A DNA stretch of 64,000 nt from an uncultured Actinomycetota bacterium (lineage in GTDB: Bacteria > Actinomycetota > Actinomycetes > Propionibacteriales > Nocardioidaceae). Shown here piece after piece: positions 11,626 through 40,458 of the stretch (position 1 is its first letter; every line of letters starts with the position of its first letter). The position numbers were made by a program, and so were the translations under genes. The stretch is from assembly GCA_963839565.1 (NCBI GenBank), contig CAWIVR010000027.1, positions 196,897 through 260,896 on the forward strand, written 5' to 3'. The notes under the pieces were generated by a model. It searched no databases, had not been told where the DNA came from, and saw nothing but the letters and a program-made list of their open reading frames with translations.

Positions 11626-13410
11626 TCAGCGGGTCGGTTGGTGCACCGGCGAGACGGCTCGCCGGTCGTCGAACGGCACCAGCGTCAGCCGGCTCTGGTT
11701 GACCGCGTCGTGGAGGGCCAGATGGCGGGTCGCCCCGGCGATCGGGCAGGTCCACTCGCCGTCGACGTCGACCAGGCGGATGCCCGGGGACTCCAGCCAG
11801 CGCAGGATCCGCTCGGTCTCCTCCGCCGTCGCGGCGGGGACAGGGCCGGCGGCGGTGGCCACCGTCTCGGCGGCGGCCCGCAGCTCGGTGACGTACTGCT
11901 GGGCCTCGCTGCCGGCGGGGATGACGCCGGCCGCGGCGAGCCGGCCGTGCCGGACGACGTGGACGGCCCAGCGGCCGTTGTCCTCGCGTCGGGCCGCGAC
12001 CAGCTCGGGCAGGCGGGTCAGGGCGGTCAGCCGCTGGGTGCGGGCGGCCGCTCGCACGAACGCCGCCAGCCGGTCGCGGTGGACGCCTGCCTCCTCGAAC
12101 CGCTCGTCGGTCGCGAGGGTCTCCATCCGCTGGTTGATGGCCTCGACGACCTCGTCGGGCCGCCGGACCAGGCTGTCGCGCAGCTGGCGGACCACGGCGG
12201 CGTACGTCGCCGGGTCGACGCTGCCGTCGCACGGCGAGAGGCAGCGGCCCATCTCCGCGAGCACGCAGGGCGCGCGTGAGGTGCGCGGCCCGATGCGGTC
12301 GGAGCACTGGCGGACGGGGAAGGTGTCGTGCAGCGCGGCCAGGCACTGCTCGGCCGTGCGCCGCGACCTGAACGGCCCGAGGTAGTCGGCACCGTCGTCG
12401 ACCACGCGCTTGACCAGCGACAGCCGCGGCCACGGGTCGGTGGTCAGCTTGATGAACGTGACCTTCTCGGGGAACCGCGAGCGACGGTTGTAGCGAGGCT
12501 TGTGCTCGGCGATCAGGCGCAGCTCGCGCACCTCGGCCTCCAACGGCGTTGCGCACTCGATGCCCGTCACCTCGGTCGCCAGCCCGACCATCTCGCCCAT
12601 CCGGCTGCGGGTCTCCGAGGACGTGAAGTAGGAGCGCACCCGGGCTCGCAGGTCGCGCGACGTGCCGACGTAGAGCACCCGTCGGCTGTCGTCGCGGAAC
12701 AGGTAGACGCCGGGCGCGTGGGGGAGGTGCTCGGCCAGGTGCCGCTTGCGACGCACCATCGGGCTGACCCGCGAGGAGAACGTCTGGAGCTCCTCGACGG
12801 TGTGCACGCCGAGCCCGCCGAGCCGCTCCATCAGCCCGTGCAGCACGTCGACCGTCGCCCGCGCATCGGCCAGGGCCCGGTGGTTGGGGGTCGTCGACGA
12901 CCGGAACACCTTGGCCAGGGACGACAGCTTGCAGTTGGGGGCGTCGTCGCGCGTGATCACCCGTCGCGCCATCAGCGCGGTGTCGAGGACCTCGAACGCC
13001 GGCCACGGACGGCCCTGCACCTCGGCGAAGTGGCGCAGGAAGCCGACGTCGAACGGCGCGTTGTGCGCGACCAGCACGCAGCCGCTCGCGAACTCGAGGA
13101 ACGCCGGCAGCGCCGACTCGATCGGCGGTGCGTCGGCCACCATCGAGTTGGTGATGCCCGTCAGCACGGCGATGAACGGAGGGATCGCCGTGTGCGGGTT
13201 GACCAGGGTCTGGAACTCGCCCAGGACCTCGCCGCCGCGCACCTTGACCGCCCCGATCTCGGTGATCATCGAGCCGGCCGCGGCCGAGCCGCCCGTCGTC
13301 TCGAGGTCGACGACGCAGAACGTCATCTCGCGCAGCGGCCGGCCGAGCTCGTCGAAAGTGCGTTGCGACTCCCATCGCGTCCCGCGATCGTTGACGCCGA
13401 GGAGCCCCAT
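11626..13410 (-). CDS. DEDD 3'-5' exonuclease (DnaQ-like) fused to a GIY-YIG/UvrC-like endonuclease
   Basis: VVDLETTG, VAHNAPFD and HRALADA exonuclease motifs; PGVYLF...LYVGTSRDLRARVRSYF and KPRYN; start placed at ATG 13410 by promoter spacing. Confidence 0.92.
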   Translation of the reverse strand: MGLLGVNDRGTRWESQRTFDELGRPLREMTFCVVDLETTGGSAAAGSMITEIGAVKVRGGEVLGEFQTLVNPHTAIPPFIAVLTGITNSMVADAPPIESALPAFLEFASGCVLVAHNAPFDVGFLRHFAEVQGRPWPAFEVLDTALMARRVITRDDAPNCKLSSLAKVFRSSTTPNHRALADARATVDVLHGLMERLGGLGVHTVEELQTFSSRVSPMVRRKRHLAEHLPHAPGVYLFRDDSRRVLYVGTSRDLRARVRSYFTSSETRSRMGEMVGLATEVTGIECATPLEAEVRELRLIAEHKPRYNRRSRFPEKVTFIKLTTDPWPRLSLVKRVVDDGADYLGPFRSRRTAEQCLAALHDTFPVRQCSDRIGPRTSRAPCVLAEMGRCLSPCDGSVDPATYAAVVRQLRDSLVRRPDEVVEAINQRMETLATDERFEEAGVHRDRLAAFVRAAARTQRLTALTRLPELVAARREDNGRWAVHVVRHGRLAAAGVIPAGSEAQQYVTELRAAAETVATAAGPVPAATAEETERILRWLESPGIRLVDVDGEWTCPIAGATRHLALHDAVNQSRLTLVPFDDRRAVSPVHQPTR

Positions 13411-13417
13411 GTTTCGG

Positions 13418-13440
13418 AAGGTAGACGCGCACGCCGACAT
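13418..13440 (-). promoter_or_regulatory. PafBC/RecA-NDp-type DNA-damage promoter, leaderless
   Basis: Minus strand aTGTCGgcg-N8-TACCTT then 7 nt then ATG; matches tTGTCRgtg-N8-TAnnnT. Confidence 0.75.
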
Positions 13441-13512
13441 TCCTCGGCAGGGCACGCGCAATACGCTGGGGTTACGACATCCCGCCCCAGCGACCCGACG
13501 TCAGGAGCAGCC

Positions 13513-13773
13513 ATGGGCAACCCGGGCAACCTCGCCCTTCCCGGGCCGGACCAGCGCTGGCGGTGTGGCGGCTGCGGCAACCTGACGCGGTTCGACGTCG
13601 CCCGGTCCCGGCGGACCGTGGAGTTCTGGCACGTCGACCTGGCGGGCGATGCGGTGGTCGAGGACACCGAGGTGCGCGGCGAGACGGTCGAAGCCGTCAC
13701 CTGCCGGTGGTGCGGACGTTCCGACGCGATCGAGGTCGTCCCGCGACACGCGCCGCGCGCCGAGGCGGGCTGA
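13513..13773 (+). CDS. Small Zn-ribbon-like hypothetical protein
   Basis: 86 aa; WRCGGCGN...TCRWCG; AGGAG RBS. Confidence 0.7.
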   Translation: MGNPGNLALPGPDQRWRCGGCGNLTRFDVARSRRTVEFWHVDLAGDAVVEDTEVRGETVEAVTCRWCGRSDAIEVVPRHAPRAEAG

Positions 13774-13786
13774 CCCGGAGACCGAC

Positions 13787-15098
13787 ATGGCCACCCAACC
13801 TGTGGGACCCGACGGCGGCGCGTACGACGACCTGTCGGCCCTGCCCGACCCGGTCCGCTCGCGCGTGCTGTCGCTCGCGGCCGACGTGCTGCCCCAGGTG
13901 GCCGGCCTGCCTCCCGCCGTACGACGGGTCGCGGACTTCGCGCCCAACCGGCGGGCGCGCCTGGGGGGAGCCGCGATCACCGGCGCGCTGCAGGACGACG
14001 AGCTCCGGGACCGGGTCGCCGTGCAGGTCGCTGCTCGCCCCGCCCGGGACGACGACCGGGTGGACGCCGCGGCCCGGGCGTGGCTGACGCGGGGGGAGGG
14101 CTGGACCGAGCTCGTGGAGCAGGTGGAGGCCGCCCTGGGGTCCGGTGCACGCGCGGCCGAGCGCGAACCCACCGAGCTGGCGCGGTTGCGCGAACGGCTC
14201 GAGGCGGCCGACCAGTCCCTCCGCGAGGCGCGGGCCAAGGCGCGGGCGCAGGTCGAGGAGTACAAGGCCGAGAACGCCACCCTCCGTCGCAAGCTCGGTG
14301 AGTCCCGCTCGTCCGAACGCCAGGCCCGCGAGACCGCGGAGGAGGCGTTGCAGCTGGCGCAGGAGGCCCGGGCCCGGGCCGCGACTTTGGAGTCGGCCCA
14401 GGACAAGGAGGTGCGCCAGCTGCGTGCCCGTGTCGAGCAGCTCGAGGCGGAGCAGGCCGCTCAGCGCCGCGAGGACCGGCGGACCTCGCGGGCCGATCGC
14501 GACGAGGCGACCATCCGGTCCCGGCTGCTGCTCGACGCCGTCATCGAGGCGGCGTCGGGGTTGCGCCGTGAGCTCGGCCTCTCGCCGGTCGCCGGCGCAC
14601 CGGCCGACCGGCTGGAGGCGGAGCTGTCCGAGCCCGTCGACGACGCCCGGACACCGGGGGCCTCGGGCGTGCTGGGTCCGGGCAGCGTCAGCATCCTCGA
14701 GCAGCTGCTGACCATGCCCCGCGCCCGGCTGCTCGTCGACGGCTACAACGTCAGCAAGGGCGCCTGGGCAGGCTCGTCCCTCGAGGCCCAGCGCCAGCGG
14801 CTGCTGCGCTCGCTCGCCCCGCTCGTCGCCCGGACCGGCGTCGAGACGACGGTGGTCTTCGACGCGGCGAACCTGACCAGCCGCCCCGTGGTCGCCGCCC
14901 CCCGCGGCGTGAAGGTGCTGTTCAGCCCGCCCGGCGTGATCGCCGACGACGTGATCCGCGACCTGGTCGCCGCCGAGCCCCCGGGCGGACCGTCGTCGTC
15001 GCGGGTCCGACGACCAGGAGGTCGTCCGGGACGCCCGGGCCGGCGGCGCCCGGGTGGCCTCTGCCTCCGCGCTGGTCGCGCTGCTCGACCGCGGCTGA
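13787..15098 (+). CDS. NYN (YacP-like PIN) domain protein with coiled coil; frameshift near 14990
   Basis: Long coiled coil, then LLVDGYNV...TVVFDA...ADDVI; the corrected frame ends ALVALLDRG-TGA at 15098. Confidence 0.82.
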
Positions 15099-15114
15099 CG
15101 CACCGTGGTCGCGG

Positions 15115-16122
15115 CGGTTTCTTTACCAAAGCGCGCGTTTGCGGGACTGGTGGGTCTGCTGGCTGTGAGACTTGCGGGGTTCCCTGTGAAGGAGTCCTGT
15201 CGTGATCTGGGTGATCGTCCCGGCCTTGAACGAGGCTGAGAACCTGCAGGTGCTGGTGCCGCGCATCGTGAAGACCCTGGAGTCGATGGGTGAGGGTGGC
15301 CGGGTGCTGGTGGTCGACGACGGTTCGACCGATGACACCGGTGAGGTGATGGCGGAGCTGGCCTCGACGTGGCCGGGGATCGAGCTGGAGACGTTGCGGC
15401 ACAACCAGGGCAAGGCGGCTGCGTTGCAGCGTGGTTTCGGCCGTGCGTTGGAGGGTGGCGCCGAGGTCGTGGTGATGATGGATGCCGACGGTCAGGACGA
15501 CCCGGACGAGCTGCCGAAGCTGGTGGCGCGGTTGGAGGCCGGCGCCGACCTGGTGACCGGGGCGCGGTTGATGCGGCAGGACCGGTTCGTGAAGCGGAAC
15601 ACCTCGAAGGTCTACAACCGGGTGACGGGGGTGTTGTCGGGTGCTCCGGGTCGGGACTTCAACTCCGGCTACAAGGTGATGACCGCCGACGTGGCTCGCG
15701 ATGTGACGCCGATGATGTACGGGGAGATGCACCGGTACCTGACGGTGATCGCGCACGACCTGGGTTACCAGGTGGTCGAGGAGGCGGTCCAGCACCATCC
15801 GCGGATGAGTGGTGAGAGCAAGTACGGGTTGGCGCGGTTCTGGCGGGGTTTCTCCGACCTGGTCACGGTGCGGTTCCTGTTGTCGTATGAGAACCGGCCC
15901 TCGCACCTGTTCGGTGGGGTGGGGGCGTTCTTGTTCTTCCTCGGCGTGGTGACGCTGGGTTACCTGACGGTGGACAAGATCACCGGTGAGCCCATCGGTG
16001 ACCGGCCGTTGTTGATGGCCGGGGTGCTGCTGACCCTGGTCGGGCTCCAGCTCGCGTTGTTCGGGTTGTTGGCCGAGCTGATCGTGCACGCCCGCAACCG
16101 CGACCGCGCCGCCCGGCCGTGA
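15115..16122 (+). repeat. Copy 1 of a ~1-kb near-identical direct repeat (leader plus GT2 gene); copy 2 is 18211-19221
   Basis: Homology starts at CGGTTTCTTTACCAAAG in both copies; the proteins are identical except the last residue. Confidence 0.95.
15202..16122 (+). CDS. Glycosyltransferase family 2, polyprenol-phosphate glycosyltransferase (GtrB/ArnC/DPM-synthase-like), copy 1
   Basis: VIVPALNE, VVDDGSTD, MDADGQDDP, DFNSGYK, GEMHRY and SKYG motifs; two C-terminal TM helices. Confidence 0.92.
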   Translation: MIWVIVPALNEAENLQVLVPRIVKTLESMGEGGRVLVVDDGSTDDTGEVMAELASTWPGIELETLRHNQGKAAALQRGFGRALEGGAEVVVMMDADGQDDPDELPKLVARLEAGADLVTGARLMRQDRFVKRNTSKVYNRVTGVLSGAPGRDFNSGYKVMTADVARDVTPMMYGEMHRYLTVIAHDLGYQVVEEAVQHHPRMSGESKYGLARFWRGFSDLVTVRFLLSYENRPSHLFGGVGAFLFFLGVVTLGYLTVDKITGEPIGDRPLLMAGVLLTLVGLQLALFGLLAELIVHARNRDRAARP

Positions 16123-18189
16123 CCGACGGGCCGCCCGGCGCGTTCACTGGCACGGGCACCGCCCCTCGAGTCCGTCGTGTGGGCCGCCCTCGCGGTCTGC
16201 GTCGGCGGGCGCGCTCATGGTGCTGCTCGGGAGCCTGGCGGATCGGGCATCTGGACCGACGAGCCGGCGCATGTGCTGCGCTACGAGAATCTGCAGGAGC
16301 ACGGCTGGTACCTGCTCGACGACGACTTCGACGGTGACGAGCCGGGGTCGTGGGTGACCGACCAGTACGTCTACGCGCCGGTCTTCACCCAGGTGATGCA
16401 CGTGGTCAACCGGGTGGTCGGCCTGGACCCGCCGGGTGCGCTGGGCACCTCGGTCGAGGCGTACGCCGCTCGGCACCTGGTCGTCGGCGCTGTGCGGCCT
16501 GCTGGGTGTCTTCGCGGTGGCCGCGATCGGGCGCCGGCTCCTCGGCTCCTGGGCCTGGGGACTGGTGGCGGCCGCGACCCTGATGGCGATCCCGATGTGG
16601 CCGGGACTCTCGATGTTCGACATCAAGGACGTCCCCGCGGCCACCGGCTACACCCTGGTCACCTGGGCCCTGGTCGAGCTCCTCTTCCAACAACCACCAC
16701 GATGGCGCACCGCCTGGGGGCGTATCGCCATCCTCACCAGCCGGCCTGATCCTCGCCATCGGCTCCCGACCCGGACTCTGGCCCGGACTCGCCGCCAGCC
16801 TCGGGGTCGCGGCGCTCCTGGCGTGGAAGCGTCCAGGAATCGATGGGAGCTCCTCGAAGCGTCTGATGTTCCTCTCGGGCTTCGTCGCGGTCGCCGGTGC
16901 ACTCGCCTACCTGGTGCTGTGGATCTCCTACCCGGCCGTGTTCTCCCGTCCACACGAATGGCTGCTCGGCTCCGTGGTCGGCTCGGCCGACTACACCGGC
17001 ACGGCGACGGGGAGCTATGACTCGTCTTGGGCCTACCTCCCGGGACGCGTCGCGGTCGTGATGCCCCCACTCCTGCTGCTCATCGGCGCAGTGGGGATGC
17101 TGACCCTGGTGCCCAAGCGGCTGCCGAGGGTGACGCCCGAGGTGTGCGGCTGGCTCCTCGTCGCCTCTCAAGCCCTCCTGTTGCCCGTCCTGGCGATCGT
17201 CCGGCAGTCGTTGCTGTACGACGATCTGCGGCAGCTGCTCTTCGCCTGCCCGGCGGTCGCGCTGTTGCTGACCGCGGGCTGGAAGAAGTTCGTCGCTGAT
17301 CTCGGACGGGAGTCCACGACAACTCGTTCGGTCCTCGGCCTGGTGTGGTCACTGGCCCTGCTCGCACCCATGGCCGTCCAGATCCAGTTGTTCCCGTATG
17401 GCTACTCCTACGCGGCTCCCCAGGCCGTGGCGGCCGCGAGCTGCGATCGAGAACGACTGGGGCCGCGTATCGCTTCGTGAGCTCCTGCCGCAGGTTCCGG
17501 ACGGAGAGTTCGTGATCTGCCATCCGTTCCTGTCAGCGCATGGGGAGACGCTGCGCTCTCTCCCTCCGACCGGCCGGCCTGCCGCGGAGGCGAGCTCGGA
17601 CTGCCGCACCGACCCGATGAGCACCCTGACGCCGTACGGACTGGCCGACGAGGACCCGAACAGATCACGTCGTTGACGACACGTTCTTGGCGCTGTTCTC
17701 TCGGGGACGCCCACCCGGCCGCAACTGTGAGGTGCTGGGGTCGGTCGAGCGGTGGCGGTACTTGGCTCGGGTGGTGATGAGCACGGCCGCTCGTTGTGAT
17801 CTGGTCCTGAACGCGTATCCGGTGATGCGGTGTGACGTTCGGACCGGATGGTTCGGGGGCGGAGTTCTTGTTGGGTGGTTGGACGTCTCACCCGTCCGAG
17901 CCTGGTGTACGGCTCCGAGAGCCGTTTGGAAGCTTCGGTTTCGAGTTGCCCGAGAGCTGGGCGGGCGGCTGGGCTGCGGCTGCGGTTGGAGGGCCTGGCG
18001 TCGGAGGTGCCGGAGGTGTGGGTGAACAACGAGCTCGTCGCTGGTGACGTCCACGGAGCTCGGGGTGGGTGGTGGAGGTGCCTGCCGAGGTGGTGGCGGC
18101 GATGGGGGAGCGGCGGCTGGTGGTGACGGTGGCGCAGCCGGCCGGGGACGCCGTTGGTGCTGACGGGGGTCTCGGTCGAGCCGAGCTGA
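16119..18189 (+). CDS. GT-C/PMT-like membrane glycosyltransferase, copy 1; multiple frameshifts, end approximate
   Basis: TDEPAH after the first TM, MFDIKDVPAATGY, LLYDDLRQLLF, LFPYGY; extracellular C-terminal domain. Confidence 0.6.
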
Positions 18190-18210
18190 GGGTCGGTCGT
18201 CGGCCGGGAC

Positions 18211-19221
18211 CGGTTTCTTTACCAAAGGGCGCGTTTTCGGGACTGGTCGGTGCTGCTGGCTGTGAGACTTGCCGGGTTCCCTTTGTGAAGGAGTCCTGTC
18301 GTGATCTGGGTGATCGTCCCGGCCTTGAACGAGGCTGAGAACCTGCAGGTGCTGGTGCCGCGCATCGTGAAGACCTTGGAGTCGATGGGCGAGGGTGGCC
18401 GGGTGCTGGTGGTCGACGACGGTTCGACCGATGACACCGGTGAGGTGATGGCGGAGCTGGCCTCGACGTGGCCGGGGATCGAGCTGGAGACGTTGCGGCA
18501 CAACCAGGGCAAGGCGGCTGCGTTGCAGCGTGGTTTCGGCCGTGCTTTGGAGGGTGGCGCCGAGGTCGTGGTGATGATGGATGCCGACGGTCAGGACGAC
18601 CCGGACGAGCTGCCGAAGCTGGTGGCGCGGTTGGAGGCCGGCGCCGACCTGGTGACCGGGGCGCGGTTGATGCGGCAGGACCGGTTCGTGAAGCGGAACA
18701 CCTCGAAGGTCTACAACCGGGTGACGGGGGTGTTGTCGGGTGCTCCGGGTCGGGACTTCAACTCCGGCTACAAGGTGATGACCGCCGACGTGGCTCGCGA
18801 TGTGACGCCGATGATGTACGGGGAGATGCACCGGTACCTGACGGTGATCGCGCACGACCTGGGTTACCAGGTGGTCGAGGAGGCGGTCCAGCACCATCCG
18901 CGGATGAGTGGTGAGAGCAAGTACGGGTTGGCGCGGTTCTGGCGGGGTTTCTCCGACCTGGTCACGGTGCGGTTCCTGTTGTCGTATGAGAACCGGCCCT
19001 CGCACCTGTTCGGTGGGGTGGGGGCGTTCTTGTTCTTCCTCGGCGTGGTGACGCTGGGCTACCTGACGGTGGACAAGATCACCGGTGAGCCCATCGGTGA
19101 CCGGCCGTTGTTGATGGCCGGGGTGCTGTTGACCCTGGTCGGGCTCCAGCTCGCGTTGTTCGGGTTGTTGGCCGAGCTGATCGTGCACGCCCGCAACCGC
19201 GACCGCGCCGCCCGGATGTGA
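18211..19221 (+). repeat. Copy 2 of the near-identical leader plus GT2 repeat
   Basis: Direct comparison with 15115-16122. Confidence 0.95.
18301..19221 (+). CDS. Glycosyltransferase family 2, copy 2
   Basis: Same protein as 15202-16122 except the last residue (P to M). Confidence 0.92.
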   Translation: MIWVIVPALNEAENLQVLVPRIVKTLESMGEGGRVLVVDDGSTDDTGEVMAELASTWPGIELETLRHNQGKAAALQRGFGRALEGGAEVVVMMDADGQDDPDELPKLVARLEAGADLVTGARLMRQDRFVKRNTSKVYNRVTGVLSGAPGRDFNSGYKVMTADVARDVTPMMYGEMHRYLTVIAHDLGYQVVEEAVQHHPRMSGESKYGLARFWRGFSDLVTVRFLLSYENRPSHLFGGVGAFLFFLGVVTLGYLTVDKITGEPIGDRPLLMAGVLLTLVGLQLALFGLLAELIVHARNRDRAARM

Positions 19222-21280
19222 CCGAAGGCCCTGGGGCGGTCACGTCGCCAGGCGGCTCGCCACCCCGAGTCCTCGTCTGGACGGCCCTGGCCGTCTGCGT
19301 GGCCGGGGTCGTGATGGTGCTGCTGGGTGCCTGGCGTGTCGGGATCTCGACCGACGAGCCCATCCACGTGCTGCAGGTACGACGAACCTGCAGGAGCACG
19401 GCTGGTACCTGCTGGACGACGACTTCGACGGTGACGAACCGGGGTCGTGGGTCACCGACCAGTACGTCTACGGGCCGGTCTTCACCCAGGTGATGCACGT
19501 GGCCAACCGGGTGGTGGGCCTGGACCCGCCGGGTGCTCTGGGCACCTCGGTCGAGGCGTACGCCGCCCGGCACCTGGTCGTCGCGCTGTGCGGCCTGCTG
19601 GGGGTCGTTCGCGGTGGCCGCGATCGGCCGCCGTCTCCTCGGCTCCTGGGCCTGGGGCCTGGTCGCGGCCGCGACCTTGATGGCGATCCCGATGTGGCCG
19701 GGGCTCTCGATGTTCGACATCAAGGACGTCCCCGCGGCCACCGGCTACACCCTGGTCACCTGGGGACTGGTCGAGCTGCTCTTCCGTGAACGTCCGGGCT
19801 GGCGTGGCAGCTTCGGTCCTCTCGTTGCTCTGACCGCCGGCCTCGTCCTGGGGATCGGCTCCCGACCCGGTCTGTGGCCGGGTCTGGCAGCGAGCCTCGG
19901 GATCGTCGGACTGCTGGCGCTCGGTCGCACGGGCGCGGTCCGCGTCGGCGGTCGGGTCACGCCGTTGGCCCAGATGGCTGCTTGCGTGCGTCCTGGCGTA
20001 CGTGGTGCTCTGGATCGCCTACCCGGCGTACTACTCCCGACCCGACGAGTGGCTGCTCGGTTCGGTGCTCGACTCCACCGACTACGTCGCCGGCCCCAGC
20101 GGGGACGGCGGGTGGGTCGTGGACCTACCTGCCGACCAGGGTCGTCGCGCTGATGCCGCCCGTCCTGCTGCTCGTCGGGGTCCTGGGTTGTCGTCACCGC
20201 GCTGCCGCGCCGGATGGCCGAAGCTGACCCCCGCGGCAGGTGGGTGGCTCGTTGGTGGCCTCCCAGGCGCTCCTGCTCCCCGGCCTGGCGGTCGTGGGTC
20301 AGTCGCTGCTGTACGACGGCCTGCGTCAGGTCCTCTTCGCCTGCCCCGCGGTCGCGCTCCTGCTGACGCTGGGCTGGCGTTCGTTCGTCACCGACCTGAG
20401 CCGGGACCACCGGCTCATGCAGCGCGTGCTGCCGCTCGTGTGGTCGGCCGCCCTGCTCGTCCCGGTCGCCGTGCAGGTCCAGCTCTTTCCCTACACCTAC
20501 TCCTACGCCGCTCCCTACGCGACGCGCCGCTCGGCTCGAGAACGACTACTGGCGGGTCTCCTACCGCGAGCTGCTCCCGCAGGTGCCGCGCGGTGACTTC
20601 GTGGCCTGCTATCCCCAACCTCTCACGACGACGGGGAGACGATGCGATACCTCCCGCCGAGCGGACGGCCTCTGGCGGAGAACGCCTCGGACTGCCGGAC
20701 CCACCCGTCCAGCACGCTCACGCCGTTCGACCTCGCGGCCTCGGACGACGACCGGTTCAGCGTCCAGGACACCTTCATCGCCCTCTTCAACCGAGGGCAG
20801 CTGCTGGGCAGCAACTGTCGTGAGCTGGGTTCGGTCGAGCGGCGGCTCTACTTCCAGCGTGTCGTGATGAGCCAGGTCGCCCGCTGCGAGCTCGTCCTCG
20901 AGCCCTATCCCGAGCAGGGAGCGGACGCTCGGGCCGGACGGGTCGGGAGCCCAGTACCTGCTCGGGGGCTGGACCTCGCACCCGAAGCAACCCGGCGTCC
21001 AGCTGGTCGAACCGTTCGGCAGTCTCGGCTTCGAGCTTCCCGAGGGCTGGGCGGCGAGCCGATCTGCAGCGTCCGGCTGGAGGGCATCGGTGCCGGGACG
21101 CCCGAGCTGCGCGTCAACAACGAGCGTGTCAGCGTCGCGCCGGACGGCGACGGCTGGGTGGCGGAGGTTCCCGCCGACATCGTCGGTGCAGATGGGTGAG
21201 GGGCGGCTCGTGGTCACCGTGGCCCCGCGGCGGCGGGCGGCGCCCTCAGCCTCACCCACGTGAGCGCTCGAGCCCGCTCT
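19218..21280 (+). CDS. GT-C/PMT-like membrane glycosyltransferase, copy 2 (diverged paralog); multiple frameshifts, end approximate
   Basis: ISTDEPIH, MFDIKDVPAATGY, LLYDGLRQVLF, LFPYTY; colinear with copy 1 but clearly diverged. Confidence 0.6.
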
Positions 21281-21298
21281 GACGACGATCGCGCAGCG

Positions 21299-21321
21299 TT
21301 GTCGGTGGTCCCTGTCAGAGT
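21299..21321 (+). promoter_or_regulatory. PafBC/RecA-NDp-type promoter, leaderless
   Basis: TTGTCGGTG-N8-CAGAGT then 7 nt then ATG 21329; exact -35 match, -10 has C instead of T at position 1. Confidence 0.65.
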
Positions 21322-21328
21322 TCGGGAC

Positions 21329-21535
21329 ATGACGACGAGGATCGATTGCGACACCTGCGTGGTGCGGGGGTTGGCCTGCGGAGACTGCGTGGTGACGGTG
21401 CTGCTCGGTCCTCCCCCCGAGCTGACCTTCGACGACGACGCGTGCCGCGCGCTCGACGTCCTGGCCCAGGGCGGCCTGGTGCCCCCGTTGCGGCTGGTGC
21501 AACCCGTGGCCTCGCCGGAGATCGAGTCCGCCTGA
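21329..21535 (+). CDS. 68-aa Cys4 microprotein (C-x2-C-x6-C-x2-C)
   Basis: MTTRIDCDTCVVRGLACGDCVVTVLLG...LVPPLRL; host-like codon usage; start fits the promoter spacing. Confidence 0.8.
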   Translation: MTTRIDCDTCVVRGLACGDCVVTVLLGPPPELTFDDDACRALDVLAQGGLVPPLRLVQPVASPEIESA

Positions 21536-21597
21536 GCGTCGGCGACGAGCCTGGCTCGGGTGATGTGTGACATATCCACGACAGGCGGTTCCGAAGT

Positions 21598-21627
21598 TTG
21601 GACGCTCGGTCAGCGCCGGACTAGTGT
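21598..21627 (+). promoter_or_regulatory. Putative housekeeping-sigma promoter for the riboswitch/NlpC transcript
   Basis: TTGGAC-N18-TAGTGT about 50 nt upstream of the riboswitch. Confidence 0.5.
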
Positions 21628-21677
21628 GTGGCGCTGAGGTACTCGTGGAAGTGGACCACCAGGGTCCGCGCGGGTGC

Positions 21678-21851
21678 CGCGTCGAGTTCGGCCCCTCTCA
21701 GCCACGGCTGAGGAGGTCCGGAGCCGGGGAACCAACCCACCTGGGGTGAATCCCCTCCGAGAATGGCGGCCAGGAATCGGGGCCGGGTCCGCCACGGAAG
21801 AGGGGTAAGGCCAATGTCGTGCCCGAACCCGTCAGCTCACCCGGTAGGCGT
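21678..21851 (+). ncRNA. c-di-AMP (ydaO/yuaA) riboswitch
   Basis: Conserved blocks GGAGCCGGGGAACC, CTGGGGTGAATCC and CCCGAACCCGTCAGCTCACCCGGTAGGCG in the leader of a cell-wall hydrolase, the typical actinobacterial context. Confidence 0.9.
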
Positions 21852-21876
21852 ACGACACCAAGGAGACCGCCCGCTC

Positions 21877-22866
21877 GTGCTGAACGGTCGGAGGCGCTCG
21901 AGCGCCGCCATCACTGCAGTCCTCCTCGCCCTCGTGATCGGCTCCGTGCCGAGCTCGCCGGCGCAGGCCGAACCCACCATCGACGACGTCCAGACCCGCG
22001 TCGACAGGCTCTACCACCAGGCCGAGCAGGCCCAGGAGCGCTATCACGACGCCAAGGTGGAGCTCGACGAGCTCCGCAAGGACGTCGGCTCGCTCCAGGC
22101 CGACCAGGACCGCCAGGACGACCGCCTCACCACGGTCCGTGAGCAGGTCCAGGACTCCATCGTCAGCCAGTACGAGGGCACCAGCCTCTCGGCCGTCGGC
22201 CAGGCCGTCGTGTCGGAGGACCCGAGCCAGTTCCTCTCGCAGCTGACCACGATCGCCGCCTACAACGACATCCAGTCGCAGCTGTTCGCCGACTACAGCA
22301 CCGAGCTCAAGGCCCTCGACATCCGCAGCGCCGCTACCGACGACCGCCGGGCCCGGATGGCCGCGCTCGAGAAGCAGCTCGCCAAGGAGCAGGCCGCGGT
22401 GCAGGACAAGCTGGCCGAGGCCAAGGACCAGCTCGACACGCTCAAGGACGAGGAGCGCGCCGAGCTGCTCGCCTCCCGCAGCGGTGACGTCCGGATCCCG
22501 TCCAACGTGCCGGCCTCCGGGCGGGCCGCGATCGCCGTGGGTGCCGCACTCGCCCAGGTCGGCGACGCCTACGTCTACGGCGCCTCCGGTCCCGACGCGT
22601 ACGACTGCTCCGGCCTGACGAGCATGGCCTGGGCGCAGGCGGGCGTCGGCCTGCCGCACTCCTCGAGCGCGCAGTTCGGAGCCGGACCGCACATCTCCTC
22701 CAGCGCCCTGCAGCCGGGCGACCTGGTCTTCTACTACAGCCCGATCAGCCATGTCGGCATGTACATCGGCAACGGCCTGATCGTGCACGCCGCCAACCCC
22801 GGGACAGGCGTCCTGGTGGCCGGCCTGTTCTCGATGCCGTACTCCGGCGCGGTCCGCCCTGGCTGA
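21877..22866 (+). CDS. Secreted NlpC/P60 (C40) peptidoglycan endopeptidase with coiled coil
   Basis: AAGGAG RBS, GTG 21877, signal peptide, coiled coil, YVYGASGPDAYDCSGL...HVGMYIG...HA catalytic motifs. Confidence 0.93.
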   Translation: MLNGRRRSSAAITAVLLALVIGSVPSSPAQAEPTIDDVQTRVDRLYHQAEQAQERYHDAKVELDELRKDVGSLQADQDRQDDRLTTVREQVQDSIVSQYEGTSLSAVGQAVVSEDPSQFLSQLTTIAAYNDIQSQLFADYSTELKALDIRSAATDDRRARMAALEKQLAKEQAAVQDKLAEAKDQLDTLKDEERAELLASRSGDVRIPSNVPASGRAAIAVGAALAQVGDAYVYGASGPDAYDCSGLTSMAWAQAGVGLPHSSSAQFGAGPHISSSALQPGDLVFYYSPISHVGMYIGNGLIVHAANPGTGVLVAGLFSMPYSGAVRPG

Positions 22867-22885
22867 TCCCCGCCCGCACACCGAT

Positions 22886-24148
22886 GTGAGCACCGCAGGC
22901 CGGTCATCCAGCAGACGCTGGTTGGTCGGCCTCGTTGCCGTGGCGGCCCTGGCCGCCGGGGGCATCACGTGGGCGGCGCGGGACGACGCGCCGTACGTCG
23001 CCCCCTCACCCGAGCAGTCCGCGCCGCGACCGCGGCCCGCCGAGGCGAGTGCAGCGCTGCAGGACCTGGAGACCGCGCTCGGCGACGGTGACGAGGACGC
23101 CGCCGCGGCCCTGGCGCCCGCGGGCGACCCCGAGTCCGCGGAACTGCTGCGCGCCGTCGCGGCCAACGCCCGGTCGCTCGGTCTCGTGCTGGACCTCCGC
23201 TACGTGGACGAGGCGGGCAGCGTCGACGCCTCCGGCCGGTGGGCGGGCGCCGTGGCCGCCACGTGGCGCTTCCGCGGCGACGCCGGGAGCGACCCGTCCC
23301 GCGCGGAGCTGGACGTCCAGTTCGTCCCCGCCGGTGCCGACAGGGTGGCCATCGCCGGGTTCGGCCAGCCCGACACGGGCCGGGTGCCCGGCTGGCTCGC
23401 GGGTCCGGTGGTGGTCCGACGGGCGCCGCGCGTGCTGGTCGTGGTCGCGGGTGCGGGCAGCCTGGGGCGCAGTGAGGCCGAGCGCTACGAGAGGTTGGCG
23501 TCCACCTCGGTGGGAGACGTCAATCGGGTGCTTCCGGACTGGCGCGGCCGCCTGGTGGTCGAGGTGCCGGCCACGAGCGCGGCGCTCGACCGGGCCCTGG
23601 ACGCCGAACCCGGCCACACGGCCGGCATCGCGGCCGTCACCGCTCCGGCCGACGGCTCGACCGACACCGACTCGCCCGTGCACGTGTTCGTCAACCCCGA
23701 GGTGTTCGACCGGCTCCAGCCCACCGGTGCGCAGGTGGTCCTCAGCCACGAGGCCGTTCACGTCGCCACCGACGCCGCCAGGAGCGACGTCGCCCCCTGG
23801 CTCCTCGAGGGGTTCGCCGACTACGTCGCCCTCCGCGACGTCGACCTGCCGCTGAGCACCACGGCCGGGCAGATCATCCGCCAGGTACGCCGGGACGGCG
23901 TGCCGGACCACCTGCCCGGACCAGACGAGTTCGCGACCGGCGCGACGCACCTCGGGGCGACGTACGAGAGTGCCTGGCTGGCCTGCGTGCTGCTGGCCGA
24001 GAGCGGGGGAGAGCAGGCCCTGGTCGATCTCTACGCCGACGTCGCCGACGGTCGCTCCCTGGAGGCCGCGCTCGGGCAGCGCTTCGGCATCACCGAGGCC
24101 GGTTTGACGCGTCGCTGGCAGCAGCGGTTGGCGGACTTGGCGGGCTGA
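22886..24148 (+). CDS. Membrane-anchored zinc metallopeptidase-like protein (gluzincin/Peptidase_MA-like)
   Basis: N-terminal TM; SHEAVH...WLLEGFADY. Confidence 0.7.
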   Translation: MSTAGRSSSRRWLVGLVAVAALAAGGITWAARDDAPYVAPSPEQSAPRPRPAEASAALQDLETALGDGDEDAAAALAPAGDPESAELLRAVAANARSLGLVLDLRYVDEAGSVDASGRWAGAVAATWRFRGDAGSDPSRAELDVQFVPAGADRVAIAGFGQPDTGRVPGWLAGPVVVRRAPRVLVVVAGAGSLGRSEAERYERLASTSVGDVNRVLPDWRGRLVVEVPATSAALDRALDAEPGHTAGIAAVTAPADGSTDTDSPVHVFVNPEVFDRLQPTGAQVVLSHEAVHVATDAARSDVAPWLLEGFADYVALRDVDLPLSTTAGQIIRQVRRDGVPDHLPGPDEFATGATHLGATYESAWLACVLLAESGGEQALVDLYADVADGRSLEAALGQRFGITEAGLTRRWQQRLADLAG

Positions 24149-24160
24149 GAGACTGGCGCG

Positions 24161-25423
24161 GTGACGCGTCCGGTGGCCAGCGTGCGGACGGTCGCCGCGG
24201 CCGTGGCTGTCGTCGGGGCCGTCTGTTTCGTCACCCTGGCAGTCGTGCTCGTCCCGTGGCACCCGGTCCCCGGTGGCGGGCCCTCCACCTTGCCGGCCCC
24301 CGACACCGTGCTCTCAGCGGAGCAGCTCGCCCGGGCTGAGGCGTACGCCGGCCCCGCCCGCTGGCTGGGCTGGTCCTCGCTCCTCGTGTCCCTGGTGGTC
24401 GTGTGCTGGCTGGGCTTCACCGAGGCGGGCGCGCGGCTGGTCGGCCGGCTGCGGGGCTGGTGGTGGGTGCGGGTGGTGCTCGGGGTCGCCCTCGTGTCGC
24501 TGGTCGGCAGGCTGGCCACGCTGCCCTTCGCCATCGTCGCCTACCGCCGCCGCGTCTCCTACGGTCTCTCCACCCAGGCCTGGCCCGACTGGCTGCGCGA
24601 CGTCGCCGTCTCGTGGGCGGTCAACGTGGTGGCGAGCAGCCTGGTGCTGCTCGTCATCGTCGGCACCGCGCGGCGCTGGCGGACCTGGTGGCCGGCGATC
24701 GCGGCGGGGATCGCCGCCACCCTCGTGATGCTGGGCTCGTTCGTCTACCCCGTGCTGGTCGAGCCGCTGTTCAGCTCCTTCACCCCGCTGCCCGACGGGC
24801 CCCTGCGCACGGGGGTGCTCGAGCTGGCCGAGGCCGAGGGCGTGCACGTCGACGACGTGCTGGAGGCGGACGCCTCGCGCCGGACCACGACGCTCAACGC
24901 CTACGTGTCGGGCTTCGGCAGCACGCGGCGGGTGGTGCTCTACGACAACCTCGTCCGCGACGTCCCGGAGGACCAGGTGCTCTCGGTCGTCGCCCATGAG
25001 CTGTCGCACGCGCGGCACGACGACGTGCTCACCGGGTCGCTGCTCGGCGCGGCCGGGTCCGTGCTGGGCATCGGCTTGCTCGGCCTGGTGATCGAGCGAC
25101 GGCGGAAGCGGGCACACGGGCCCGAAATGCAGAGAACCGCCGGAGATCCGGCGGTGGTGCCACTGGTCCTGGCCCTGGTGGCGGTGGCGGGGCTGCTGGC
25201 CAGTCCGATCCAGAACGGGATCAGCCGGCGGATCGAGACCCGAGCGGATGTCGACGCCCTGCTCGCGACGCACGACCCGCAGGCGTTCATCGAGGTCCAA
25301 CGGCAGCTGGCGATCCGATCACTGGCGGATCTGACCGGGCCGGCCTGGTCGCAGTTCTGGTTCGGCAGCCACCCGACGACGCGTGAGAGGATCGCGATCG
25401 CCGGGTGGCTGTCGGACCGGTAG
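24161..25423 (+). CDS. M48 (Ste24/HtpX) membrane metalloprotease
   Basis: NAYVSGFG, AHELSH, ETRAD and SHPTTRERI motifs with TM helices. Confidence 0.92.
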   Translation: MTRPVASVRTVAAAVAVVGAVCFVTLAVVLVPWHPVPGGGPSTLPAPDTVLSAEQLARAEAYAGPARWLGWSSLLVSLVVVCWLGFTEAGARLVGRLRGWWWVRVVLGVALVSLVGRLATLPFAIVAYRRRVSYGLSTQAWPDWLRDVAVSWAVNVVASSLVLLVIVGTARRWRTWWPAIAAGIAATLVMLGSFVYPVLVEPLFSSFTPLPDGPLRTGVLELAEAEGVHVDDVLEADASRRTTTLNAYVSGFGSTRRVVLYDNLVRDVPEDQVLSVVAHELSHARHDDVLTGSLLGAAGSVLGIGLLGLVIERRRKRAHGPEMQRTAGDPAVVPLVLALVAVAGLLASPIQNGISRRIETRADVDALLATHDPQAFIEVQRQLAIRSLADLTGPAWSQFWFGSHPTTRERIAIAGWLSDR

Positions 25424-40020: not shown

Positions 40021-40440
40021 CTAAAGCCGGGCGCCGTCGTCGAAGGGATCCCTCGGACCGCGGGGCATCTGGGCGACCAGGTAGCCGAACCCGCCCAGGA
40101 AGCCGCCGATGAGCAGCCAGGCCACCGGAGTGGGCAGGGAGATGCGGAACACCGTCGCGAGCAGCAGGATCACGGGGGAGACGAAGACGCCGAGCCAGGC
40201 CGCGAGCCGGTCCCTCGGCGGGCGGGGGAGGGGTGGCGGCGGGGGCGGGACGAACCGCTCCTCAGGAGCGACGTCCGCCGGCTGCGGGAGCGGAGCGAGC
40301 TCGGGCGGACGCGGCTCCGGCTCCGTCTGCTGCTCGGTGACGCGGGCGTCGTCCTCCGGGCCGAGGACGCGCTCGCCGTAGTTGGCGACGATCTCGCGCC
40401 AGGTGGCGTCGTCGCTGGGCTTGTCGGTGGGCCCGGTCAC
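40021..40440 (-). CDS. Small membrane protein, hypothetical
   Basis: Pro-rich N-terminus, two TM helices, C-terminal DDGARL. Confidence 0.75.
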   Translation of the reverse strand: MTGPTDKPSDDATWREIVANYGERVLGPEDDARVTEQQTEPEPRPPELAPLPQPADVAPEERFVPPPPPPLPRPPRDRLAAWLGVFVSPVILLLATVFRISLPTPVAWLLIGGFLGGFGYLVAQMPRGPRDPFDDGARL

Positions 40441-40458
40441 GGACCTACCGTACGTCGG

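What the first reader, a model, noticed from the sequence alone, without database searches (positions are those of the whole stretch)
21299..21535. 68-aa Cys4 microprotein behind a near-perfect PafBC DNA-damage promoter
Seen: TTGTCGGTG-N8-CAGAGT-N7-ATG with the same geometry as the promoter of the repair nuclease at 13418. The product has C-x2-C-x6-C-x2-C (Zn or Fe-S ligand pattern) and a conserved-looking LVPPLRL tail. It lies directly upstream of the c-di-AMP-controlled wall hydrolase. Inference: an uncharacterised damage-inducible metal-binding microprotein, possibly coupling DNA damage to cell-wall or division control.
Basis: partly seen in the sequence, partly recalled or inferred. Interest (0 to 1): 0.62.

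Follow-up and report, generated by a model that had tools for sequence, protein, structure and literature searches.

The report
Unnamed Cys4 protein of the damage regulon
A 68-residue, four-cysteine protein with no family name sits behind a textbook PafBC (LexA-independent DNA-damage) promoter in this Nocardioides genome; the gene and its promoter motif are kept together across much of the phylum Actinomycetota, so it is probably a core but unstudied member of the actinobacterial DNA-damage response.

Summary
TTGTCGGTG (21299-21307)-N8-CAGAGT (21316-21321)-N7-ATG (21329) is present. It is the only exact match in the window, against 0.02 expected by chance.

The 68-codon ORF (21329-21535) is a real gene under purifying selection. 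It belongs to a large family with no Pfam, NCBIfam, PDB or phage relative. The family is single-copy in about a third of sampled Actinomycetota genomes. Four Cys and a GL-x-P motif are invariant.

The evidence for damage control is comparative:
- 76 of 79 Nocardioides orthologs keep TGTC-N12-nAnnnT 6-8 nt before the ATG.
- 43 of 49 orthologs drawn evenly across the phylum have TGTC-N12-TAnnnT upstream, against 0.16% of shuffles.
- 12 of these also carry a LexA box.
- This genome encodes pafA-pafB-pafC. It has 23 such leaderless promoters, in front of uvrB, radA, an lhr-type helicase gene, a DNA ligase gene, ada/alkA and others.

No expression data could be obtained. The protein's function and metal content are inferred, not shown.

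The proposed link to the cell-wall hydrolase is weak. That synteny was seen only in Nocardioides and Mycobacterium loci, and the hydrolase has its own riboswitch and, in relatives, its own repeat element. A YacP-like NYN ribonuclease gene is the more widely conserved neighbour.

The parts
21299..21307 (+). PafBC -26 element (TTGTCGGTG)
   Evidence: This is the most conserved upstream block in 79 Nocardioides orthologs (positions -29 to -21, up to 1.8 bits). TGTC is kept phylum-wide. It matches the published PafBC consensus tGTCgg(N10)tA(N3)T (PMC8635444).
21313..21321 (+). Extended -10 (TG-t-CAGAGT)
   Evidence: T, G, A2 and T6 are conserved at 0.80-0.85 in the Nocardioides orthologs. CAnnnT hexamers occur in 7 of the 23 leaderless PafBC-type promoters of this genome.
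21329..21535 (+). 68-aa Cys4 microprotein gene, probably leaderless (ATG 7 nt after the -10)
   Evidence: GC3 is 0.91. Mean pairwise difference at codon positions 1/2/3 is 0.108/0.083/0.37. There are more than 4000 homologous 90% clusters and at least 1000 50% clusters. C7, C10, C17, C20 and P52 are invariant.
21560..21571 (+). Decayed copy (GTGATgtGTGAC) of the 9-nt GTGACnnGT direct-repeat element found in relatives
   Evidence: In 41 of 80 Nocardioides loci this spacer holds two or more GTGAC, with successive copies mostly 9 nt apart.
21696..21865 (+). c-di-AMP riboswitch (ydaO type)
   Evidence: Rfam RF00379, 52.5 bits against a gathering score of 38.
21877..22866 (+). Secreted coiled-coil NlpC/P60 (RipC-like) peptidoglycan hydrolase
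   Evidence: Pfam NLPC_P60 at 1.5e-20 and a partial NCBIfam RipC match. The start was set from the SD and GTG.
13418..13439 (-). PafBC-type promoter of the nuclease gene
   Evidence: TGTCGGCG-N8-TACCTT-N7-ATG.
11626..13410 (-). DnaQ-like exonuclease protein (Rv2191-like), leaderless
   Evidence: Pfam RNase_T at 4.9e-31. The divergent partner of the microprotein in the Mycobacterium loci has the DnaQ-like N-terminus and the GIY-YIG/UvrC-like part read by eye from the translation; PMC11348249 describes the same architecture for Rv2191.
13649..15098 (+). YacP-like NYN-domain gene; ancestral immediate upstream neighbour of the microprotein; frameshifted near 14975-15000 in this assembly
   Evidence: Pfam NYN_YacP.
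15099..21295 (.). 6.2-kb insertion (tandem GT2 plus GT-C-like cassettes) between the NYN stop and the PafBC box
   Evidence: Locus L001 (95% identical) is collinear with 12169-15098 and 21296-24499, and has 25 nt in place of this stretch. GT2 Pfam match.

Best explanation
The ORF 21329-21535 encodes a cytoplasmic 68-residue protein of an unnamed family confined to Actinomycetota. It is transcribed as a leaderless mRNA from a PafBC-dependent promoter. Under the published mechanism, PafBC bound to single-stranded DNA contacts the TGTCGG element at about -26 and adapts the SigA holoenzyme to a promoter that has a -10 but no -35. The protein should therefore be made mainly after DNA damage, together with uvrB, radA, the lhr-type helicase gene, the ligase gene, ada/alkA and the neighbouring DnaQ-like nuclease gene. 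Inferred steps: the four invariant cysteines (C-x2-C-x6/7-C-x-D-C) hold a metal, most likely Zn, that stabilises the small N-terminal part. The confident helix (residues 36-47) and the invariant G-L-x-P-x-L-[RK] motif form a surface for a partner protein. The protein would then act stoichiometrically as a small damage-induced modulator, as DinI or SulA do in E. coli, and not as an enzyme. The partner is unknown. Shown here: the gene is real and under purifying selection, the promoter motif is conserved phylum-wide, and the genome encodes PafBC. Not shown: induction, metal content, partner.
For: Motif and geometry.
Conservation in Nocardioides: 76 of 79 orthologs keep TGTC-N12-nAnnnT-N6-8-ATG, and information peaks only at the -26 element, the TG, and A2/T6 of the -10.
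Conservation in Mycobacterium: orthologs have TTGTCGGTG-N8-TAgCGT followed by a short SD leader.
Conservation across the phylum: in an evenly drawn sample, 43 of 49 orthologs have TGTC-N12-TAnnnT within 160 nt upstream, against 4 of 2450 shuffles and 4 of 142 control stretches. Twelve also carry GAACnnnnGTTC, in most of them starting 2 nt after the -10. Most of the 20 orthologs my regular expression missed carry the motif too.
Own genome: dop, pafA and two adjacent WYL genes are present. Of 103 relaxed motif hits, 23 are followed by a start codon 6-7 nt after the -10. Ten of these that I scanned are AlkZ-like, DEAD-box helicase (Lhr-type), RadA, a WYL regulator, UvrB, PD-(D/E)XK nuclease, ATP-dependent ligase, RmuC, Ada/AlkA and a DnaQ-like exonuclease.
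Co-occurrence: 85 of 86 genomes with the family also have the Pup-ligase family, the marker of the locus that carries pafBC.
Insertion test: a 6.2-kb insertion replaced all DNA upstream of position -33 relative to the ATG and left the promoter intact, as expected for a promoter that needs nothing upstream of the -26 element.
Protein: purifying selection; invariant C7, C10, C17, C20 and P52, near-invariant D19, G49 and L50; pLDDT about 90 for residues 31-50.
Published consensus and mechanism: PMC8635444 and PMC8223512.
Against: There are no expression data for this gene in any organism. I could not find the mycobacterial ortholog in the text or held supplements of the PafBC papers. The first base of the -10 is C, not T. 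Co-occurrence with the Pup system is confounded by phylogeny, and 76 genomes with the Pup ligase lack the family, including all 9 genomes of a large-genome genus of the same class. Metal binding rests only on the Cys pattern: AlphaFold gives pLDDT about 60 for the Cys region, and there is no structural or profile match to any Zn or Fe-S family. The partner-binding role is inference.
Confidence: 0.7

Rival explanations
1. The microprotein couples DNA damage to cell-wall or division control. It would do so either by read-through from the PafBC promoter into the riboswitch-gated NlpC/P60 hydrolase gene, or by acting on the machinery that activates that hydrolase.
For: The hydrolase follows on the same strand in 80 of 80 Nocardioides loci and 75 of 80 Mycobacterium loci. 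No terminator-like site lies between the two genes. The 70 nt around the stop codon fold no better than shuffles in the 80 Nocardioides loci (median z about 0).
Against: Among the 29 phylum-wide loci with 1.5-kb flanks, the hydrolase follows only in the Mycobacterium-type loci. The damage promoter, in contrast, is kept everywhere. The riboswitch is present in the Nocardioides-type loci and absent from the mycobacterial ones scanned. The spacer carries a separate 9-nt direct-repeat element in relatives, which points to an independent regulatory region. The microprotein has no signal peptide, whereas the hydrolase is secreted.
Confidence: 0.15
2. The microprotein works with the YacP-like NYN ribonuclease encoded immediately upstream, for example as its damage-induced activator, inhibitor or specificity factor. 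It would then act on RNA or ribosomes and not on DNA.
For: The NYN_YacP gene lies directly upstream on the same strand in at least 42 of 80 Nocardioides loci. It does so in at least 14 of 69 phylum-wide loci, from the largest sampled family (f9) and several other families, with the PafBC promoter filling the 64-131 nt gap. In the closest relative, L001, the NYN stop lies 28 nt before the PafBC box. This adjacency spans more lineages than the one with the hydrolase.
Against: No NYN gene was found in the 80 Mycobacterium loci. In this window the pair is split by 6.2 kb, and the NYN gene appears frameshifted, yet the microprotein is intact. Adjacency without shared regulation is weak evidence.
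Confidence: 0.15
3. The four cysteines bind an Fe-S cluster or form a thiol switch. The protein would then be a redox-sensing regulator in the manner of WhiB-like proteins, which bind SigA domain 4, and not a Zn-stabilised adaptor.
For: It is small, has four invariant Cys and is confined to Actinomycetota. PafBC also acts at SigA domain 4 (PMC8635444), and its regulon includes oxidative-stress genes (PMC8223512).
Against: The Cys spacing (C-x2-C-x6/7-C-x2-C) is not the Wbl spacing as I recall it. No member matches the Whib Pfam model or any Fe-S family at E<=1. There is no G[VI]WGG turn.
Confidence: 0.12
4. The motif is an ordinary SigA promoter that resembles the PafBC consensus, and the gene is expressed constitutively.
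For: The -10 with its TG extension could work on its own. No induction data exist.
Against: The TGTCGG block at -26 is the most conserved upstream feature over very large distances, where flanking bases are randomised. In one lineage the same promoter is overlapped by a LexA box, a second and independent mark of damage control. In this genome the same motif precedes known repair genes.
Confidence: 0.06
5. The ORF is a cis-acting leader peptide, like the polycysteine leaderless short ORFs of mycobacteria that sense cysteine supply, and has no function as a protein.
For: It is leaderless, rich in Cys, and upstream of another gene.
Against: The protein sequence is conserved across classes whatever gene lies downstream. 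The cysteines are spaced, not consecutive. Purifying selection acts along the whole length.
Confidence: 0.02

Closest known systems
[quoted passage not shown]
   Same: The -26 element TGTCGG, the 10-nt distance to a tAnnnT-type -10, and the lack of a -35. pafB and pafC are encoded next to pafA. The same motif precedes repair genes in this genome, and some orthologs have dual control with a LexA box, as at mycobacterial recA.
   Different: This is a Nocardioides, not a Mycobacterium. The -10 starts with C and is helped by a TG extension. The transcript is predicted to be leaderless. Induction and PafBC binding were not tested.
Small damage-induced modulators (E. coli DinI and SulA, B. subtilis YneA, mycobacterial ChiZ/Rv2719c, Corynebacterium DivS), named from memory
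   Same: A short protein, with no recognisable catalytic domain, made from a damage-controlled promoter. This is the working analogy for how it acts.
   Different: No sequence or fold relationship to any of them. It is cytoplasmic with four invariant Cys, whereas YneA, ChiZ and DivS are membrane or wall-associated. Its target is unknown.
WhiB-like (Wbl) proteins
   Same: Small proteins with four invariant cysteines, restricted to Actinomycetota.
   Different: Different Cys spacing, no match to the Whib Pfam model, and a different C-terminal motif (GL-x-P-x-L-R instead of the Wbl turn and basic tail).
The mycobacterial copy of the same locus
   Same: The same protein family, a PafBC-type promoter, the divergent Rv2191-like nuclease and a RipC-like gene downstream. 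I re-checked this on loci L083-L089 and L111-L190.
   Different: In Mycobacterium the two promoters are back to back and the microprotein mRNA has an SD leader. Here the nuclease is 7.9 kb away, an NYN gene and a 6.2-kb insertion lie between, the mRNA is leaderless, and a c-di-AMP riboswitch precedes the hydrolase.

Membership tests
PafBC (RecA-NDp) promoter class | -26 element tGTCgg with an invariant GTC triplet | tested here: met
   TTGTCGGTG at 21299-21307. TGTC is kept in orthologs phylum-wide. Consensus taken from PMC8635444.
PafBC (RecA-NDp) promoter class | -10 hexamer tA(N3)T placed 10 nt after tGTCgg, with no -35 element | tested here: met
   CAGAGT at the right distance, with A2 and T6 present. 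The first base is C, as in 7 of 23 such promoters of this genome. No sigma-70 -35/-10 pair was found. The DNA upstream of the box was replaced by an insertion without loss of the motif.
PafBC (RecA-NDp) promoter class | The regulator PafBC is encoded in the genome | tested here: met
   Two Pup-ligase-family genes (dop, pafA) are followed by two adjacent WYL genes on contig 15.
PafBC (RecA-NDp) promoter class | PafBC-dependent induction by DNA damage, and PafBC occupancy in vivo | not testable with these tools
No ChIP or RNA-seq table naming the ortholog could be found.
LexA (SOS) regulon | SOS box GAAC-N4-GTTC in the promoter region | tested here: not met
   None near 21299; the only match in the window is at 35170. 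The feature is met in 12 of 49 orthologs of other lineages.
WhiB-like (Wbl) Fe-S proteins | Match to the Whib family model and the Wbl cysteine spacing | tested here: not met
   None of 54 members matches at E<=1. The spacing here is C-x2-C-x6/7-C-x2-C.
Zinc-ribbon or zinc-knuckle small proteins (generic) | Two CxxC knuckles that fold around one Zn, recognisable by profile or fold | tested here: inconclusive
   Two invariant CxxC pairs, but no significant Pfam or PDB profile hit. The model has pLDDT about 60 in that part, and Foldseek found nothing.
Polycysteine leaderless attenuator ORFs of mycobacteria | A very short ORF with consecutive Cys codons and no conservation as a protein | tested here: not met
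   68 codons, spaced Cys, and protein conservation across classes.
c-di-AMP riboswitch (RF00379), downstream element | Covariance-model score above Rfam's gathering score | tested here: met
   52.5 bits against 38, full length.

The most novel reading that the evidence does not exclude
This Cys4 protein is a missing core effector of the actinobacterial DNA-damage response, kept under PafBC control (and additionally under LexA control in some lineages) since the early radiation of the phylum. It would act on a central machine: for example with the adjacent YacP-like NYN ribonuclease on stalled ribosomes or mRNA, on SigA/PafBC as feedback, or on the division/FtsEX-RipC axis as a checkpoint.
Probability: 0.15. 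Interest if true: 0.8.

Novelty: new member of a known kind. Interest (0 to 1): 0.58.

Why it matters
The PafBC regulon is the main DNA-damage response of mycobacteria and their relatives, and most attention has gone to its repair enzymes. This is a single-copy gene whose link to the PafBC promoter is as deeply conserved as that of well-known repair genes. In some lineages LexA control is added. Yet the family has no name, no structure and, as far as I could find, no publication. It is small, easy to delete and to purify, and present in the genus Mycobacterium (fast-growing Mycolicibacterium species and slow growers such as M. colombiense), so the function should be directly testable in laboratory mycobacteria. 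Most database entries also start the protein 8 or 10 codons too early, at a GTG or TTG that lies inside the PafBC box itself. That is a useful annotation correction.

Tried and rejected
2. Literature. Rv2737A, a guess from memory, gave no paper. For MSMEG_4256-4259 and Rv2191, only the nuclease is mentioned. Held supplements of four PafBC-related papers do not contain these tags or are not held. A search combining PafBC with small-protein terms gave nothing relevant. The 2018 ChIP-seq/regulon paper is not in the searchable library.
3. I could not establish whether M. tuberculosis or M. smegmatis carry the gene. Two scans with mycobacterial queries returned 80 other species each.
4. Naming the lineage that carries the LexA box failed: only one hit, labelled 'Actinomycetes bacterium'.
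6. Profile searches against PDB sequences, Pfam, NCBIfam and PHROGs, and tblastn against phages, all gave nothing.
7. A first synteny BLAST used wrong reading frames and was repeated (one search replaced).
8. I looked for a conserved terminator hairpin after the gene and found none.
9. I considered a beta-clamp-binding reading of GLVPPLRL and dropped it for lack of any test.

Full report
**The observation**

The window is from a Nocardioides; the related loci with identical protein sequence are an uncultured Actinomycetota MAG and N. agariphilus. At 21299-21331 the plus strand reads TTGTCGGTG-gtccctgt-CAGAGT-tcgggac-ATG. The pattern TGTCRGTG-N8-YANNNT occurs once in the 64 kb, against 0.02 expected. 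A TG lies one base before the hexamer, giving an extended -10. The ORF from ATG 21329 to the stop at 21535 encodes 68 residues, with C7-x2-C10-x6-C17-x2-C20 and GLVPPLRLV. Downstream lie a c-di-AMP riboswitch (21696-21865, RF00379, 52.5 bits) and an NlpC/P60 hydrolase. The hydrolase really starts at GTG 21877, after AAGGAG, and not at the ATG inside the riboswitch. All parts of the observation are confirmed.

**The gene is real**

- GC3 is 0.91, with GC2 0.51.
- Among 79 Nocardioides orthologs, mean pairwise differences at codon positions 1, 2 and 3 are 0.108, 0.083 and 0.37.
- The family is very large: more than 4000 clusters at 90% identity and at least 1000 clusters at 50% identity with E<=0.001.
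- It is single-copy in 100 of 301 evenly drawn Actinomycetota genomes, 86 of them with E below 1e-10.
- No Pfam, NCBIfam, PHROG, PDB-sequence or phage match exists. Every database name is 'hypothetical protein'.
- In an alignment of 148 members, C7, C10, C17, C20 and P52 are invariant. I5, D19, V22, L26, L42, L45, G49 and L50 are nearly so.
- Most members from outside the Nocardioides and Mycobacterium loci have seven residues between the Cys pairs, not six, and two further conserved His at positions 16 and 27.

**The start codon**

In Nocardioides the ATG is fixed. The box-to-ATG distance varies by one base in some species, and conservation upstream follows promoter positions, not codons. Most database entries are 76 or 78 residues long. 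That corresponds to starting at the in-frame GTG (21305) or TTG (21299), both inside the PafBC box. This is an annotation artefact.

**Is the promoter a PafBC promoter?**

The published in-vivo consensus is tGTCgg(N10)tA(N3)T. It has a strictly conserved GTC triplet read by PafB at -23 to -28, a SigA-type -10, and no -35 (PMC8635444; background in PMC8223512). I tested four things.

1. Conservation in Nocardioides. Of 79 orthologs, 76 have TGTC-N12-nAnnnT 6-8 nt before the ATG, and 63 have the exact geometry. Information content peaks only at TGTCGGTGG, the TG, and A2 and T6 of the hexamer.
2. Conservation elsewhere.
   - Mycobacterium orthologs have TTGTCGGTG-N8-TAgCGT followed by a short leader with an SD.
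   - In the evenly drawn phylum sample, 43 of 49 orthologs have TGTC-N12-TAnnnT within 160 nt upstream. The control rates are 0.16% of dinucleotide shuffles and 4 of 142 control stretches.
   - Most of the 20 further orthologs that my regular expression missed have it too, some with a CAnnnT hexamer as here.
   - Twelve orthologs carry GAACnnnnGTTC. In most of them it starts 2 nt after the -10, where LexA would block initiation.
   - The gene is therefore marked as damage-controlled in two independent ways.
3. The genome's own regulon.
   - dop, pafA and two adjacent WYL genes are present.
   - Of 103 relaxed motif hits, 23 are followed by a start codon 6 or 7 nt after the hexamer, far more than at any other spacing.
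   - Ten of these 23 were scanned against Pfam. They are AlkZ-like glycosylase, a DEAD-box (Lhr-type) helicase, RadA, a WYL regulator, UvrB, a PD-(D/E)XK nuclease, ATP-dependent ligase, RmuC, Ada/AlkA and the DnaQ-like exonuclease.
   - recA, ssb, dnaB and dnaE (identified by eye from their N-termini) have the motif with longer leaders.
4. Co-occurrence. Of the 86 genomes with the family, 85 have the Pup-ligase family, against 76 of the 215 genomes without it. This is consistent but confounded by phylogeny.

**A natural experiment**

The closest relative locus (L001, 95% identical DNA) is collinear with window 12169-15098 and 21296-24499. The window has 6.2 kb (15099-21295: GT2 genes plus the larger membrane-protein ORFs that an earlier first-reader note of this scan calls GT-C) where L001 has 25 nt. 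The insertion ends three bases before TTGTCGGTG. Everything upstream of the box was replaced and the promoter stayed intact. That fits a promoter that needs only the -26 and -10 elements.

**Neighbours**

- In all 80 Nocardioides loci the hydrolase follows on the same strand. In 62 of them the nuclease lies within 3 kb upstream and is divergent. In Mycobacterium the figures are 75 and 80 of 80.
- Among the 29 phylum-wide loci with 1.5-kb flanks, the hydrolase follows only in the Mycobacterium-type loci.
- The riboswitch was found in the Nocardioides-type loci and not in the mycobacterial or other loci scanned.
- In 41 of 80 Nocardioides loci, the spacer between microprotein and riboswitch carries two to four direct repeats of GTGACnnGT with a 9-nt period. 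On the other strand this reads GTCACAnnn, like the published MtrA box GTCACAgcg. The window keeps only a decayed copy.
- The hydrolase therefore seems to have its own control region. No terminator was detected between the two genes, so read-through is not excluded.
- The more widely conserved neighbour is a YacP-like NYN-domain gene directly upstream on the same strand. It is present in at least 42 of 80 Nocardioides loci and at least 14 of 69 phylum-wide loci from several families, and in none of the Mycobacterium loci. In the window this gene (13649-15098) is separated from the microprotein by the insertion and shows frame changes near 14975-15000.

**What the protein does**

This is not known.

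- AlphaFold gives a confident helix at residues 36-47, with pLDDT about 90 for residues 31-50. The Cys region has low confidence, and no fold match was found.
- I commit to the following as most likely. It is a metal-stabilised (probably Zn) small adaptor made after DNA damage. It acts by binding a partner through the helix and the invariant GL-x-P-x-L-[RK] motif.
- An Fe-S or thiol-switch reading is not excluded. It does not fit the Wbl family.

**Novelty and verdict**

The promoter type is known, so this is a new member of a known kind. The protein family appears to be unnamed and unstudied. I could not reach the published M. smegmatis regulon tables, where the ortholog may already be listed as a hypothetical protein. 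The gene, the motif and its phylum-wide conservation are solid. Damage induction is a strong inference. Metal binding and mode of action are hypotheses. The cell-wall link is weak.

Noticed in passing
window 15099-21295: A 6.2-kb block (two GT2 genes plus larger membrane-protein ORFs in several frames) is an insertion relative to the 95%-identical locus L001. It sits exactly between the stop of the NYN gene and the PafBC box. In seven other Nocardioides loci (L014, L050, L053, L056, L062, L068, L071) the NYN gene lies 0.8-2 kb further from the microprotein than usual, so this spacer may be a recurrent insertion site.
   Followed up: partly
window 13649-15098: The YacP-like NYN-domain gene (long coiled-coil N-terminus, NYN domain at the C-terminus) changes reading frame twice near 14975-15000 compared with L001. 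This is either a pseudogene or an assembly error. It is the most widely conserved neighbour of the microprotein across classes.
   Followed up: partly
L002, L008, L009, L015, L021, L028 and others, 10-110 nt after the microprotein stop; window 21560-21571: Two to four tandem 9-nt direct repeats GTGACnnGT (GTCACAnnn on the other strand, like the MtrA box GTCACAgcg) lie upstream of the c-di-AMP riboswitch of the NlpC/P60 gene. GTGAC occurs 1.64 times per 160 nt against a background of 0.25. The element is decayed in the window and in L001.
   Followed up: partly
window 21763-21877: The long ORF of the hydrolase (ATG 21763) overlaps the riboswitch aptamer. The likely start is GTG 21877, 11 nt after AAGGAG, which gives a normal signal peptide (RRRSSAAITAVLLALVIGSVPSSPAQA).
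   Followed up: yes
own genome, contig 14 (minus strand, motif at reverse-strand offset 42345): A third HTH_11-WYL-WCX regulator, separate from the pafBC pair next to pafA, itself has a leaderless PafBC-type promoter (TGTCGGCG-N8-TACCGT-N7-ATG). A WYL paralogue may therefore be under PafBC control.
   Followed up: no
L205, L216, L224, L229 (lineage with the LexA box): The gene directly upstream of the microprotein encodes another small Cys4 protein (…YRCTLCGNLTRFDV…VRCRWCG…). It was not characterised.
   Followed up: no
alignment A2, positions 16 and 27: Outside the Nocardioides and Mycobacterium loci, most family members have His at two further positions (H-C-x-D-C and LLHPP) and seven residues between the Cys pairs, not six. 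The metal site may therefore differ between lineages.
   Followed up: no
window 40422-40443: A second near-match to the motif (TGTCGGTGGGCCCGGTCACGGA, last base wrong) lies between two minus-strand ORFs. It is probably chance.
   Followed up: no
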